Shown piece after piece: positions 51,201 to 54,200 of a stretch of DNA of 64,000 nt. Location: the NCBI RefSeq assembly GCF_000026545.1, contig NC_011601.1. The stretch is one strand, 5' to 3'. Made by a program: the position numbers. Position 1 is the stretch's first letter. The number at the start of each line of letters is the position of its first letter. The DNA comes from Escherichia coli O127:H6 str. E2348/69 (GTDB lineage: Bacteria > Pseudomonadota > Gammaproteobacteria > Enterobacterales > Enterobacteriaceae).

Positions 51201-54200
51201 GCAACTGCGCATTTTTACCGGCGATGAAATTATTCCGACTCTCGTATCAACCTTAAAATCTGACGAAGATAACCCGAATATTATCGAAGGTGCTTCGTCG
51301 TGGTTTGATATACAAGCCCCACACGAAATCACTTTTAATCTTGATGGCGAACCGTTGAGTGGGCAAAACTTCCATATTGAAATACTTCCGGCGGCGTTGC
51401 GTTGTCGATTACCACCAGATTGTCCATTGTTAAGGTAAGTACAAAACAAACGCAGAAGCAGGATCCGCAGGCCGGCATCATCCCTGGATTCTTCTGCACT
51501 TACAATTTTTTCATGCAGTCACCCCGTTGCCATTAACTCTTCAAGTGATGCATACCCGACTACCGCAGAGTTAAAGCACGGCTGTTGAAAATCCTCGGCG
51601 ACAACAATCGTTTTAATTCCCGCTGCCTGTGCAGCTTTAAAACCACTCAGACTGTCTTCTATAACCAGACAATCTGCGGCGGGCAGGCGTAATTTTCGTA
51701 GTGCGGAGAGGTAAACTGCCGGATGTGGTTTGCCGTGGCTTTCGTCGTCAGCACTGCAAATCACCGAAAAACAGTGTTCAATTTTGAGTTTTGTCAGCAC
51801 CGCATCAATCACCTGATAAGATGAAGAGGTCGCCAGTGCCAGTTGGTATCCTGACTGGCATAAAAAAGTGAGCACATTCTTTACCCCCGGCATGGCCTCG
51901 CCTTTTTCAGCAATTAACGTGGTTATCAGGCGACGGATCTCCGCTTCCAGTTCCGTGGGCGTAATAGACAGATGACAGTATTCGCACCAGGTTCGGGCTA
52001 TCTCATCAAGCCTTTTCCCTTTCGTCAGTTGGATACACTCTTCATCGCTAACGCTGGCACCCCATCGTGCCAGCGCTCCTTGTTGCGCCTGACGCCATAA
52101 TCCTTCCGAATCAATAATGACGCCGTCCATATCAAAAATAACTGCTTTGCAATTAAACATCGTTCCTCACATTAAAGCCTGGCATTACACCAGGCTTGCC
52201 TCCATCAGGAAACCGTCGCGGCTTCACCTGCTCTTAATTTCTGGGTTGAGAATCCTGGTTGTTCAACCCGAATAAACGGGCAAATAATAAACGCGATAAT
52301 GTACAGGGTTGTATAAGCTATAACCACACCAATTGCACTGAAATAAGGTAACAGCACCACGGCTATCGCAGGGGCAAGAAAGTTAGACAGACCGGCAGAG
52401 AGGTTATAAACCGAAATCGCCGCGCCTTTGTGTTTTGGCTCCAGCGCCGGGAAAACCGCCGCCATCGGCACGAACGCTGCAACAAAGATCCCCAGCGCAA
52501 CGGCGGGCACCATTGCCATCCAATAGTTATGCCCGAAGTATTGCGGCATGTAGTAGAAAGCCAGACTGGAAAGTGCCATTCCCACACAGCCGAACCAGCG
52601 AACAACTTTCATCCAGCCAATCTTCTCTGCCAGTACGCCCCAGAAAATGTTGGTAAAAATCGTCGTGAAGAAGAAGACCGCCCACACCTGTAGCCACTCG
52701 GACGTAGTAAAGCCCAGTTCATCGACAAACATCATCGGCATAATCACCGCAAAGCCAAACAGTGACAATGTATTGATAATTCGCACAATACTGGAGAGCA
52801 AAATGTTGCGGTTGGTGTAGAGTAAGGTGACAGCACGGCCGAGCTCGCTGAACTTCTCTTTGGTCGTCAGATTTTGCATATGATGCGGAGTCTGAACTTT
52901 ACGCATCGAAACCAACGCAAGAATGCCGCCAGTTACGCAAAATCCCAGCGCCAGCCACAGGGTGCCCATTTCGCCGATAACCGGAATGGTAAAGCTGGGA
53001 ATGTAACTACCGAAAACGCCAATACCAATGGAGTAAACCGCCCAGAACCAGCCCAGCGCGGCACTGGTACTGTCGCTGCGCACGTTATGCACAACGGCAA
53101 CGATAAAGGCGTAAAGGAAGAGAGGATATGCCAGACCACGAATGCCGTAGAACAGCAGAATTAATGCATAGTTCGCCTGCCCCAGACCGAAGACCAGAAA
53201 CAGCACATGGAAAATACACCACAGTACAAAACCGATGAACATGGTCTTTTGCGGCGTAATAATTTCCGCCACCACGCCGGATACCCATGCAGAGAGTGCC
53301 GCCGCCAGACCATACAGCGTGAAAGCAAATGAAGCTTCCGCAGGCGTAAAGCCCAGCGCCTTAATATAGTGCGATAGGAATGCCAGTTCAAAACCATCGC
53401 CGGTCATAAAGATAGCAATCGCTATATATCCCCAGACCAGATTTAAAGGTAATCCCAGCCATTGTTTATTGGTTAACGACATAGTGACCTCGTTTGTAGG
53501 GTACAAAACGCCGCTCCGGTGTCACCACCGGAGAGCATTAATGACAGTTGTTATTGGTTGCGATAGTTAAGATCGTTGTTGTATAGCGCGTTAAACTGTT
53601 GATAACGTTGCATCAAAGCCTGATGGCGTTCAGCATCGCTGTGCCAGGTTTGGTAGATTTCCGGTTTTTCGCAGACCGCCGTCAGCGGTTTACCTGCGGC
53701 TAGACAAGCCAGACGCGCCGCGCCAAGCGCACCACCGGTTTCCCCACCTTTATGCGTTACAACCGGCATGTTGAGAATATCCGCCAGCAGTTGCGCCCAG
53801 AACGGACTTCTCGCCCCTCCCCCCACCAGCGAACATTGTTCAATAGCCGTTCCACTCTCTTGCAGAACACGCAGTCCGTCAGCAATACCAAAACTCACAC
53901 CTTCCAGTACGGCATAGCCCATCAGTGCTCGCTGGCTGGAATGGGTCAGTCCCCAGAACATCCCTCTGGCATCCGAGTCGTTATGGGGAGTCCGTTCTCC
54001 GGAAAGATATGGCAGAAACATCGGGGCACTGGCTTTTTCTGCTGGCGAAAGCTGGGCTATCTCTTCGAGTAATTCTGTTTCGGTAACGCCCACCAGACGG
54101 CAAAACCATTGCAAGCAACTTGCGGCGCTAAGCATGACGCTCATCTGATGCCATAAATTCGGCAGCACATGGCAAAATGCGTGGACGGCTGATTGCGGGG

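What the first reader, a model, noticed from the sequence alone, without database searches (positions are those of the whole stretch)
51519..52160. HAD-family phosphatase gene at the distal end of the arabinitol operon
A HAD hydrolase with intact motif I (DMDGV) sits directly downstream of the pentitol permease on the same strand and inside the island. It may dephosphorylate a sugar- or polyol-phosphate from this pathway, a role not part of the classical dal/atl description as I recall it.
Basis: inference. Interest (0 to 1): 0.3.

Follow-up and report, generated by a model that had tools for sequence, protein, structure and literature searches.

The report
Phosphatase gene ending the arabitol operon
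The gene is real: an uncharacterised sugar-phosphate phosphatase that rides as a conserved but dispensable fourth gene of the D-arabitol utilisation operon in many enteric bacteria, most likely a low-level safety valve against toxic phosphorylated by-products, which makes it a modest rather than surprising finding.

Summary
Window 51519..52160 (minus strand) encodes a 213-aa HAD phosphatase with all four catalytic motifs. It lies 44 nt downstream of dalT, 88 nt inside an 8.46-kb dal/rbt island of E. coli E2348/69.

The linkage is conserved. All 60 listed E. coli genomes, of 330 that carry the island, have the gene next to dalT. So do all 12 informative non-E. coli loci with a homologue of at least 50% identity and dal genes, from nine taxa. 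None of 79 loci with more distant homologues has DalD or DalT nearby.

The gene is under purifying selection (dN/dS 0.087). It evolves faster than dalD, dalK and dalT. It is absent from the dal operon of Klebsiella aerogenes NCTC10006, so it is an accessory gene.

It is not HxpB: 33% identity, below the NCBIfam cutoff, and a separate clade. Its fold matches HxpB, CbbY and the MtlD mannitol-1-phosphate phosphatase domain.

A GC-rich hairpin sits in the dalT-HAD gap in all 12 loci examined. A terminator follows the gene.

Best reading: a co-transcribed, weakly expressed relief-valve phosphatase for xylulose-5-P or pentitol phosphates, analogous to B. subtilis AraL. Substrate and co-transcription remain untested. 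Interest is low to moderate.

The parts
51519..52160 (-). HAD subfamily-IA (C1-cap) phosphatase gene, 213 aa; proposed fourth gene of the dal operon
   Evidence: ORF and translation; Pfam and NCBIfam; RefSeq annotation; invariant motifs; AF2 model pLDDT 95, TM 0.90 to 1te2; dN/dS 0.087
52175..52197 (-). GC-rich intercistronic hairpin (AAGCCTGGt-gtaat-gCCAGGCTT, 9 predicted pairs) in the 44-nt dalT-HAD gap, followed by UUUAAU
   Evidence: Sequence; MFE -14.4 kcal/mol. A hairpin occupies the equivalent position, with different stem sequences, in 12 of 12 loci. No Rfam match.
52164..52168 (-). Shine-Dalgarno GAGGA of the HAD gene, 4 nt before the ATG, outside the hairpin
   Evidence: Sequence; folding
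51441..51497 (.). Long hairpin (GCAGAAGAATCCAGG...CCTGCTTCTGC) followed by GTTTGTTTTGT on the minus strand, with a T-run on the plus strand. Likely bidirectional terminator shared by HAD and convergent yegS.
   Evidence: Terminator scan hit 51469..51451; folding of both strands
52205..53482 (-). dalT, pentitol MFS permease (RefSeq ATG start at 53482; the longest ORF starts at TTG 53506)
53514..53533 (-). Conserved hairpin in the dalK-dalT gap (CTCCGGTG-GTGA-CACCGGAG)
   Evidence: present in 9 of 9 loci folded
53551..55014 (-). dalK, D-xylulokinase
   Evidence: TIGR01312, 640 bits
55028..56395 (-). dalD, D-arabinitol 4-dehydrogenase
   Evidence: NF043014, 748 bits, above the 600-bit cutoff
56396..56602 (.). 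Divergent dalD/dalR control region; presumed operon promoter
   Evidence: Gene layout. Only a plus-strand promoter-like hit at 56462..56490. Promoter not mapped.
56603..57544 (+). dalR, SorC/DeoR-type sugar-binding regulator
   Evidence: Pfam Sugar-bind, E=3e-51
51432..59892 (.). dal/rbt island, absent from K-12, lying between yegS and gatR
   Evidence: blastn against the K-12 locus

Best explanation
The gene encodes an active, Mg-dependent HAD-type sugar- or polyol-phosphate phosphatase. It is transcribed from the DalR-controlled dalD promoter as the last cistron of a dalD-dalK-dalT-HAD mRNA. The GC-rich hairpin just upstream probably sets its expression below that of dalDKT, by partial termination or by marking a stable 3' end of the upstream message. 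The enzyme is not a step of the pathway (D-arabitol to D-xylulose to D-xylulose-5-P). It most likely acts as a relief valve. It would hydrolyse xylulose-5-P when it overaccumulates, and/or dead-end pentitol phosphates made when the xylulokinase DalK phosphorylates pentitols admitted by DalT. This would prevent sugar-phosphate toxicity. Shown here: gene, motifs, fold, synteny, purifying selection, hairpins and terminator. Inferred: co-transcription, expression level, substrate and physiological role.
For: Catalytic apparatus: motifs intact and invariant. Fold: confident model (pLDDT 95.1) whose best structural matches are HxpB/YniC (TM 0.90), CbbY xylulose-1,5-bisphosphate phosphatase (0.89) and the mannitol-1-P phosphatase domain of MtlD (0.86). 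Substrate contacts: three of the four sugar-contacting residues predicted in HxpB (E22, W25, S117; PMC10576766) are conserved as E19, W22 and S113. E19 and S113 also correspond to polyol-binding E25 and S120 of AbMtlD (PMC9168451). Operon signals: same strand, 44-nt gap, own SD, no above-chance promoter signal (7 found against 6.0 expected), terminator only after the gene. Synteny: conserved in all 60 listed E. coli genomes of the 330 with the island (the other 270 match in the same identity band) and in all 12 informative non-E. coli loci (nine taxa) with a homologue of at least 50% identity and dal genes. A thirteenth locus (E. hormaechei) ends in a dalT fragment. None of 79 loci with more distant homologues has DalD or DalT. 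The gene is operon-internal in Pectobacterium and Aeromonas, followed by tal and tkt, which independently suggests that xylulose-5-P drainage limits this pathway. In Aeromonas it stays with dalD-dalK although dalT is missing. Selection: dN/dS is 0.087, with dS of 1.4, matching dalT/K/D (1.06-1.34) and far above flanking yegS (0.16), so the gene is co-inherited with the island. Accessory status: it diverges faster (50-68% identity) than DalD/K/T (81-93%) in the same genomes and is absent from K. aerogenes. Precedent: B. subtilis AraL is a HAD phosphatase inside the arabinose operon, active on xylulose-5-P, proposed to detoxify, and kept low by an mRNA hairpin (PMC3207120). Toxicity: xylitol-phosphate is toxic, and xylulokinase is named as probably involved in forming it (PMC3962153).
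Against: No transcript, enzyme or phenotype data exist for this protein. Its substrate cannot be read from sequence. In some species the hairpin is followed by a good U-tract (C. koseri UUUUU), so it could terminate most transcription and leave the gene poorly expressed or separately expressed. Its absence from K. aerogenes shows the operon works without it. A Lys (K49) replaces the Leu that contacts sugar in HxpB, and the TKGKR cap loop is strongly basic, which might point to a different substrate, such as one with a second acidic group. Hydrolysing xylulose-5-P next to its kinase would create an ATP-wasting futile cycle.
Confidence: 0.5

Rival explanations
1. Generic housekeeping-type promiscuous HAD phosphatase that travels with the island. 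It has no specific role in pentitol metabolism and may be transcribed on its own.
For: HAD phosphatases of this subfamily are broad in specificity (HxpB). The gene is the fastest-evolving of the cluster. It is missing in K. aerogenes. A hairpin with a partial U-tract precedes it.
Against: Linkage to dalD-dalK persists across about 50% protein divergence, different chromosomal contexts and loss of dalT. None of 79 loci with more distant homologues shows this linkage. The gene is operon-internal in Pectobacterium and Aeromonas. It is under purifying selection. No promoter signal exceeds chance.
Confidence: 0.2
2. A true pathway enzyme for an extra substrate. For example, it might release free pentitol or pentulose from a phosphorylated compound, or dephosphorylate a bisphosphate by-product as CbbY does.
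For: Structural similarity to CbbY (TM 0.89) and to the MtlD phosphatase domain. The invariant basic cap loop T46-K-G-K-R50 could bind a second anionic group.
Against: The classical pathway needs no phosphatase. DalT is an MFS permease for free pentitols, not a PTS, so no pentitol phosphate is imported. The K. aerogenes operon lacks the gene.
Confidence: 0.12
3. A phosphomutase of the beta-phosphoglucomutase type rather than a phosphatase.
For: It belongs to the PGMB-YQAB subfamily neighbourhood (TIGR02009, 121.5 bits). Beta-PGMs appear among the structural matches.
Against: It scores below the cutoffs for TIGR02009 (153) and for the bPGM equivalog (89.8 against 189.4). Its nearest characterised relatives are hydrolases.
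Confidence: 0.03

Closest known systems
E. coli HxpB (YniC), hexitol phosphatase B / 2-deoxyglucose-6-P phosphatase (PDB 1te2; NCBIfam NF008087)
   Same: Same HAD subfamily IA with a C1 helical cap. It is the best sequence and structure match (E=4e-29; TM 0.90). It shares the catalytic motifs and three of four predicted sugar-contacting residues.
   Different: Only 33% identical. The score of 172.9 bits is below the 191-bit equivalog cutoff. It falls in a separate clade. HxpB is a stand-alone gene in K-12, whereas this gene is embedded in an operon. The cap residue is Lys49, where HxpB has Leu52.
Bacillus subtilis AraL (HAD phosphatase in the araABDLMNPQ-abfA operon)
   Same: A HAD phosphatase encoded inside a pentose-type catabolic operon. 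D-xylulose-5-P is an intermediate of that L-arabinose pathway and the end product of this one. AraL is non-essential for the pathway, has a proposed detoxification role, and has an mRNA hairpin immediately upstream that limits its production (PMC3207120).
   Different: AraL is subfamily IIA (NagD-like, C2 cap), so the similarity is convergent recruitment, not homology of the cap. The AraL hairpin sequesters the RBS. Here the SD lies outside the hairpin.
CbbY (xylulose-1,5-bisphosphate phosphatase) and the phosphatase domain of Acinetobacter MtlD (mannitol-1-P phosphatase)
   Same: Same fold (TM 0.89 and 0.86). Both are enzymes that remove a harmful or intermediate pentulose or polyol phosphate. 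E19 and S113 match polyol-binding E25 and S120 of MtlD.
   Different: Identity is 25-28%. The MtlD residues R28 and R78 are not conserved (W22 replaces R28). The genomic contexts differ.
Classical dal/rbt pentitol operons (dalDKT-dalR, rbtDKT-rbtR)
   Same: The upstream genes are the canonical dalD, dalK, dalT and dalR, and the island sits at yegS as in E. coli C.
   Different: To my recollection, the classical description has three structural genes per operon. No HAD gene follows rbtT. One dal operon (K. aerogenes NCTC10006) lacks the HAD gene.

Membership tests
HAD superfamily phosphatase, subfamily IA (C1 cap) | Motif I DxDx(T/V), with the nucleophile Asp and the Asp+2 general acid/base | tested here: met
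   D10-M-D12-G-V14; invariant except for one variant allele
HAD superfamily phosphatase, subfamily IA (C1 cap) | Motif II Ser/Thr, motif III Lys and motif IV acidic pair | tested here: met
   T111, K144 and E168-D169 are invariant in 21 sequences. They align to T118, K151 and E175-D176 of AbMtlD.
HAD superfamily phosphatase, subfamily IA (C1 cap) | Rossmannoid core with an alpha-helical cap inserted between motifs I and II | tested here: met
   AF2 model, pLDDT 95.1, with helices 19-86 between strand 1 and strand 106-110. TM 0.90 to 1te2.
HAD superfamily phosphatase, subfamily IA (C1 cap) | Mg-dependent phosphomonoesterase activity | not testable with these tools
   Requires an enzyme assay
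HxpB (NCBIfam NF008087 equivalog) | Score at or above the curated cutoff of 191 bits | tested here: not met
   172.9 bits
HxpB (NCBIfam NF008087 equivalog) | Orthology to E. coli hxpB | tested here: not met
   33% identity. dal-linked proteins form their own clade in an NJ tree, and K-12 HxpB-like sequences are more distant. RefSeq names it only 'HAD family hydrolase'.
beta-phosphoglucomutase (TIGR01990) | Score at or above the 189.4-bit cutoff | tested here: not met
   89.8 bits
dal (D-arabitol) operon | Same strand, short gap to dalT, own RBS, and a terminator only after the gene | tested here: met
   44-nt gap, GAGGA SD, terminator at 51441..51497
dal (D-arabitol) operon | Gene order conserved across genomes | tested here: met
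   All 60 listed E. coli genomes of 330 with the island, and 12 informative loci in nine other taxa (a thirteenth, E. hormaechei, ends in a dalT fragment). Controls: 0 of 79 loci with distant homologues have DalD or DalT. Exceptions: K. aerogenes and the IncHI2 dalD-xylB-ABC type lack the gene.
dal (D-arabitol) operon | Co-transcription with dalDKT and control by DalR and arabitol | not testable with these tools
   Needs RT-PCR, RNA-seq or reporter fusions
AraL-type operon-embedded relief-valve phosphatase (functional class) | HAD subfamily IIA (NagD-like) C2 cap | tested here: not met
   The cap lies between motifs I and II (C1), so this is subfamily IA. It is a functional analogy only.

The most novel reading that the evidence does not exclude
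The gene encodes a dedicated pentitol-phosphate (or xylulose-5-P) phosphatase, here called 'DalP'. It would be a built-in damage-control step of the D-arabitol operon, with its dosage fixed by a structurally conserved intercistronic hairpin. It would protect dal-expressing cells from the 'toxic synthesis' of dead-end pentitol phosphates by DalK. Its natural loss in K. aerogenes would predict greater pentitol sensitivity there.
Probability: 0.3. Interest if true: 0.45.

Novelty: new member of a known kind. Interest (0 to 1): 0.3.

Why it matters
The ribitol/arabitol operons are a textbook system for enzyme evolution and for toxic side reactions of catabolic pathways. A conserved fourth gene, seemingly uncharacterised, would add a metabolite-damage-control element to that picture. 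It would be a second, independently recruited example of the AraL principle: a throttled HAD phosphatase placed beside a pentulose kinase. In practice, a pentitol-phosphate or xylulose-5-P phosphatase would be useful for engineering xylitol, arabitol or xylulose production. The stakes are otherwise modest. The gene is already annotated, belongs to a very large and well-understood enzyme family, and is dispensable in at least one natural operon.

Tried and rejected
It returned mostly HxpB-like genes at 31-45% identity and only one ortholog (Mangrovibacter). I reused these loci as a negative control for linkage. Orthologous contexts came from exact-protein look-ups instead.

2. Six literature searches for the gene or the operon found nothing on a phosphatase in the dal operon. 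Gene-name terms such as 'dalT' mostly matched unrelated words. The older pentitol papers (Reiner, Scangos, Link, Heuel, Hartley) are not held in the library, so statements about them are my recollection.

3. The Huang et al. 2015 HAD substrate-profiling paper could not be fetched.

4. An Rfam scan of 51300..56800 found no known RNA family for the hairpins.

5. I considered HxpB orthology and a beta-PGM identity and rejected both on score cutoffs, identity and the tree.

6. An internal promoter for the HAD gene is not supported. The nearest minus-strand consensus hit is 580 nt upstream, inside dalT, and hit counts are at the chance level. It cannot be excluded.

7. RBS sequestration by the hairpin, the AraL mechanism, is not seen in the MFE folds of E2348/69 or E. 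coli C.

8. Formal covariation statistics for the hairpin were not attempted. The gaps are too divergent to align without imposing the structure. I report only per-sequence folds and mononucleotide-shuffle z-scores (-5.1 to +0.1, mean about -2.3).
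Full report
**Where the window comes from.** The window is the mdtD-baeSR-yegPQRS-gat region of enteropathogenic E. 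coli O127:H6 strain E2348/69, matched at 100% identity.

**The observation.** The reported ORF is real. It runs 51519..52160 on the minus strand, starts with ATG, and encodes 213 aa. A GAGGA Shine-Dalgarno lies 4 nt upstream of the ATG. RefSeq annotates the same ORF as 'HAD family hydrolase' WP_000481297.1.

- Pfam HAD_2 matches at E=1e-34.
- All four HAD motifs are present: D10-M-D12-G-V, T111, K144 and E168-D169. They are invariant across 21 homologues that go down to 48% identity.

**Surroundings.** The gene lies 44 nt downstream of dalT (RbtT/DalT/CsbX MFS transporter, 519 bits) on the same strand. Upstream of dalT are dalK (xylulokinase, 640 bits) and dalD (D-arabinitol 4-dehydrogenase equivalog, 748 bits against a 600-bit cutoff). 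dalR is divergent.

Alignment to K-12 shows homology ending at 51431, inside the last codons of yegS, and resuming at 59893, at the end of gatR. Positions 51432..59892 are therefore an 8.46-kb island, and the HAD gene starts 88 nt inside its left edge.

**Transcription signals.**

- *The gap.* The 44-nt gap holds a GC-rich hairpin at 52175..52197 (nine predicted pairs, -14.4 kcal/mol), followed by UUUAAU and then the SD.
- *Promoters.* No promoter-like signal exceeds chance: 7 were found against 6.0 expected, and none lies near the gene.
- *Terminator.* Downstream of the stop codon, a long hairpin (51452..51497) followed by GTTTGTTTTGT looks like a bidirectional terminator shared with convergent yegS.
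- *The upstream gap.* A comparable hairpin sits in the dalK-dalT gap (53514..53533) and is conserved in 9 of 9 loci folded. Such hairpins are therefore a feature of this operon's intercistronic regions, including the dalK-dalT gap inside the canonical dalDKT unit.
- *Conservation.* The dalT-HAD hairpin is present in 12 of 12 loci examined, while its stem sequence changes. Examples are GCCTGG/CCAGGC in E. coli, GGCTGGCATG/CATGCCAGCC in K. variicola, GGCAGGCATGG/CCATGCCTGCC in Pectobacterium and CCGGGCGG/CCGCCCGG in K. oxytoca. Shuffle z-scores average about -2.3.
- *Rfam.* There is no Rfam match.

**Linkage within E. coli.** 330 of 5,426 complete genomes carry the island.

- 26 carry it at 98% identity or more. 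This is the E2348/69 and O55:H7 type, with gat retained and no rbtT.
- 304 carry it at about 82.5% identity. This is the E. coli C type, with rbtT present and gat replaced.
- The HAD gene is annotated next to dalT in every one of the 60 listed records. The remaining 270 match in the same 80-90% identity band.

**Linkage outside E. coli.** Exact-protein look-ups for homologues of 50-68% identity always found dalD-dalK-dalT-HAD on one strand, wherever the contig extends upstream. This holds for K. variicola, K. oxytoca, C. koseri, Cedecea, Mangrovibacter and a third enterobacterial island type. In E. hormaechei the contig ends, and only a dalT fragment is visible upstream.

In Pectobacterium and Aeromonas the gene is followed by transaldolase and transketolase genes on the same strand, so there it is operon-internal. 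In Aeromonas dalT is missing, but HAD still follows dalD-dalK.

As a control, I examined 79 loci encoding more distant homologues (below 48% identity). None has DalD or DalT within 8 kb. A 53%-identical Vibrio protein annotated as HxpB stands alone.

In a neighbour-joining tree the dal-linked proteins fall in one clade. The sister clade holds stand-alone Vibrio sequences and others annotated HxpB. K-12 HxpB-like sequences are more distant.

**Limits of the linkage.** K. aerogenes NCTC10006 has the order rbtT-rbtK-rbtD-rbtR, dalR, then dalD-dalK-dalT. After dalT come only 34 nt with a strong terminator, and then yegS. No HAD remnant is detectable. An IncHI2-plasmid cluster (dalR, a DalD of 58% identity, xylB and an ABC transporter) also lacks the gene. 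No HAD gene follows rbtT in E. coli C. The gene is therefore a common but dispensable companion of the dal side specifically.

**Selection.**

| Comparison, E2348/69 vs E. coli C | dN/dS | dS |
|---|---|---|
| HAD | 0.087 | 1.41 |
| dalT, dalK, dalD | about 0.03 | 1.06-1.34 |
| yegS (flanking) | 0.085 | 0.16 |

The HAD gene shares the island's history and is under purifying selection, but its constraint is about threefold weaker than that of its neighbours. Across genera it keeps 50-68% identity where DalD, DalK and DalT keep 81-93%.

**What kind of enzyme.**

- *Best family match.* This is the HxpB equivalog NF008087, but at 172.9 bits it falls below the 191-bit cutoff. The beta-PGM models are also below their cutoffs.
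- *Identity to K-12 HxpB.* It is 33%.
- *Fold.* The AlphaFold model is confident (pLDDT 95.1) and shows a C1-cap subfamily IA fold. The best PDB matches are YniC/HxpB (TM 0.90), CbbY xylulose-1,5-bisphosphate phosphatase (0.89) and the mannitol-1-P phosphatase domain of A. baumannii MtlD (0.86).
- *Substrate-contacting residues.* Three of the four residues predicted to contact sugar in HxpB (E22, W25, S117; PMC10576766) are conserved as E19, W22 and S113. The fourth, L52, is an invariant Lys (K49) within a basic TKGKR cap loop.
- *Comparison with MtlD.* E19 and S113 also align with the polyol-hydroxyl ligands E25 and S120 of MtlD. The MtlD residue R28 is W22 here (PMC9168451).

Together this points to an acyclic or ketose sugar-phosphate or polyol-phosphate substrate. 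It does not identify which one.

**Most likely mechanism.** The pathway itself needs no phosphatase: DalT imports the pentitol, DalD makes D-xylulose, and DalK makes xylulose-5-P. I therefore read the enzyme as a relief valve co-expressed with the operon at a reduced level. It would hydrolyse excess xylulose-5-P and/or dead-end pentitol phosphates formed by DalK.

Support comes from three directions.

- *The tal-tkt extension.* Its presence in two genera suggests that draining xylulose-5-P is a real constraint.
- *Toxicity.* Xylitol-phosphate is reported to be toxic, and xylulokinase is named as probably involved in forming it (PMC3962153).
- *The AraL precedent.* B. subtilis AraL is a HAD phosphatase inside the arabinose operon. 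It is active on xylulose-5-P, is proposed to detoxify accidentally accumulated sugar phosphates, and is kept low by an mRNA hairpin (PMC3207120).

AraL belongs to subfamily IIA and its hairpin hides the RBS. Here the enzyme belongs to subfamily IA and the SD lies outside the hairpin. This is analogy, not membership.

My recollection of the Scangos and Reiner work on toxic pentitol phosphorylation fits this reading, but I could not check it here.

**Novelty and score.** The gene is already annotated, and the enzyme class is very well known. What appears undescribed in the searched literature is its status as a conserved, accessory fourth gene of the dal operon, forming its own orthologous group distinct from HxpB, with a conserved upstream hairpin. 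I rate it a new member of a known kind, with interest about 0.3. Substrate, co-transcription and phenotype remain to be tested.

Noticed in passing
window 57546..59892: The ribitol side of the island is decayed in E2348/69. Relative to O55:H7 there is a 1,085-bp deletion that removes the 5' parts of rbtR and rbtD and their control region (junction near 58085-58094). There is a further deletion of about 153 bp, plus frameshifts, in rbtK (near 59099-59107). rbtT is absent in both strains. The dal side is intact.
   Followed up: partly
window 51432..64000; L003: E2348/69 and O55:H7-type strains (26 genomes) carry dal genes together with an apparently intact gat operon. In E. coli C-type strains (304 genomes) the island replaces gat. 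As I recall, the older literature called the rbt-dal and gat genes mutually exclusive ('genotypic exclusion'). Here coexistence goes with loss of rbtT, and in E2348/69 with decay of rbt.
   Followed up: partly
window 50539..57544 vs L002: The two E. coli island types differ by dS of 1.1-1.4, whereas the adjacent yegS differs by 0.16. The switch occurs right at the yegS stop codon. This implies separate acquisitions, or replacement by recombination from different donors.
   Followed up: partly
window 51519..51530: E2348/69 has a 2-nt insertion near the 3' end of the HAD gene. The protein ends ...MATG*, instead of ...MATVAA* in O55:H7 or ...LAVAA* in E. coli C.
   Followed up: yes
protein P0002 (Escherichia sp. 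MR cluster, 38 members): This 94%-identical allele reads DMNGV instead of DMDGV. The change, D12N, removes the general acid/base Asp and would probably inactivate the enzyme.
   Followed up: no
L097 (K. aerogenes NCTC10006) 8909..11114: dalT is followed directly by a terminator hairpin and yegS, with no HAD gene. This is a natural HAD-less dal operon at the same chromosomal site. In this assembly dalD is split into three ORFs, possibly through sequencing errors.
   Followed up: yes
L088 (Pectobacterium) 8730..11698; L089 (Aeromonas caviae) 8755..11713: The dal operon is extended by transaldolase and transketolase genes after the HAD gene. The Aeromonas copy lies next to a phage-type integrase, lacks dalT, and is followed by a sugar ABC transporter.
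   Followed up: partly
L098 (E. hormaechei IncHI2 plasmid pEHZJ1) 4841..12527: A second, divergent arabitol-type cluster lies on conjugative IncHI2 plasmids, next to an ars operon. It comprises a regulator, a DalD of 58% identity, XylB and an ABC transporter, and it has no HAD gene.
   Followed up: partly
L084 (K. variicola) 1482..3557: In this K. variicola genome dalR is flanked by fbaB, with no rbt genes. It is a dal-only locus.
   Followed up: no
window 49631..49656: K-12 carries the cryptic prophage remnant PR-X (ogrK, yegZ) between cyaR and yegR. It is absent at this point in E2348/69.
   Followed up: partly
window 53483..53506: The dalT start is ambiguous. The longest ORF begins at TTG 53506 (433 aa), while RefSeq uses ATG 53482 (425 aa). 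The latter matches the length of the orthologs.
   Followed up: partly
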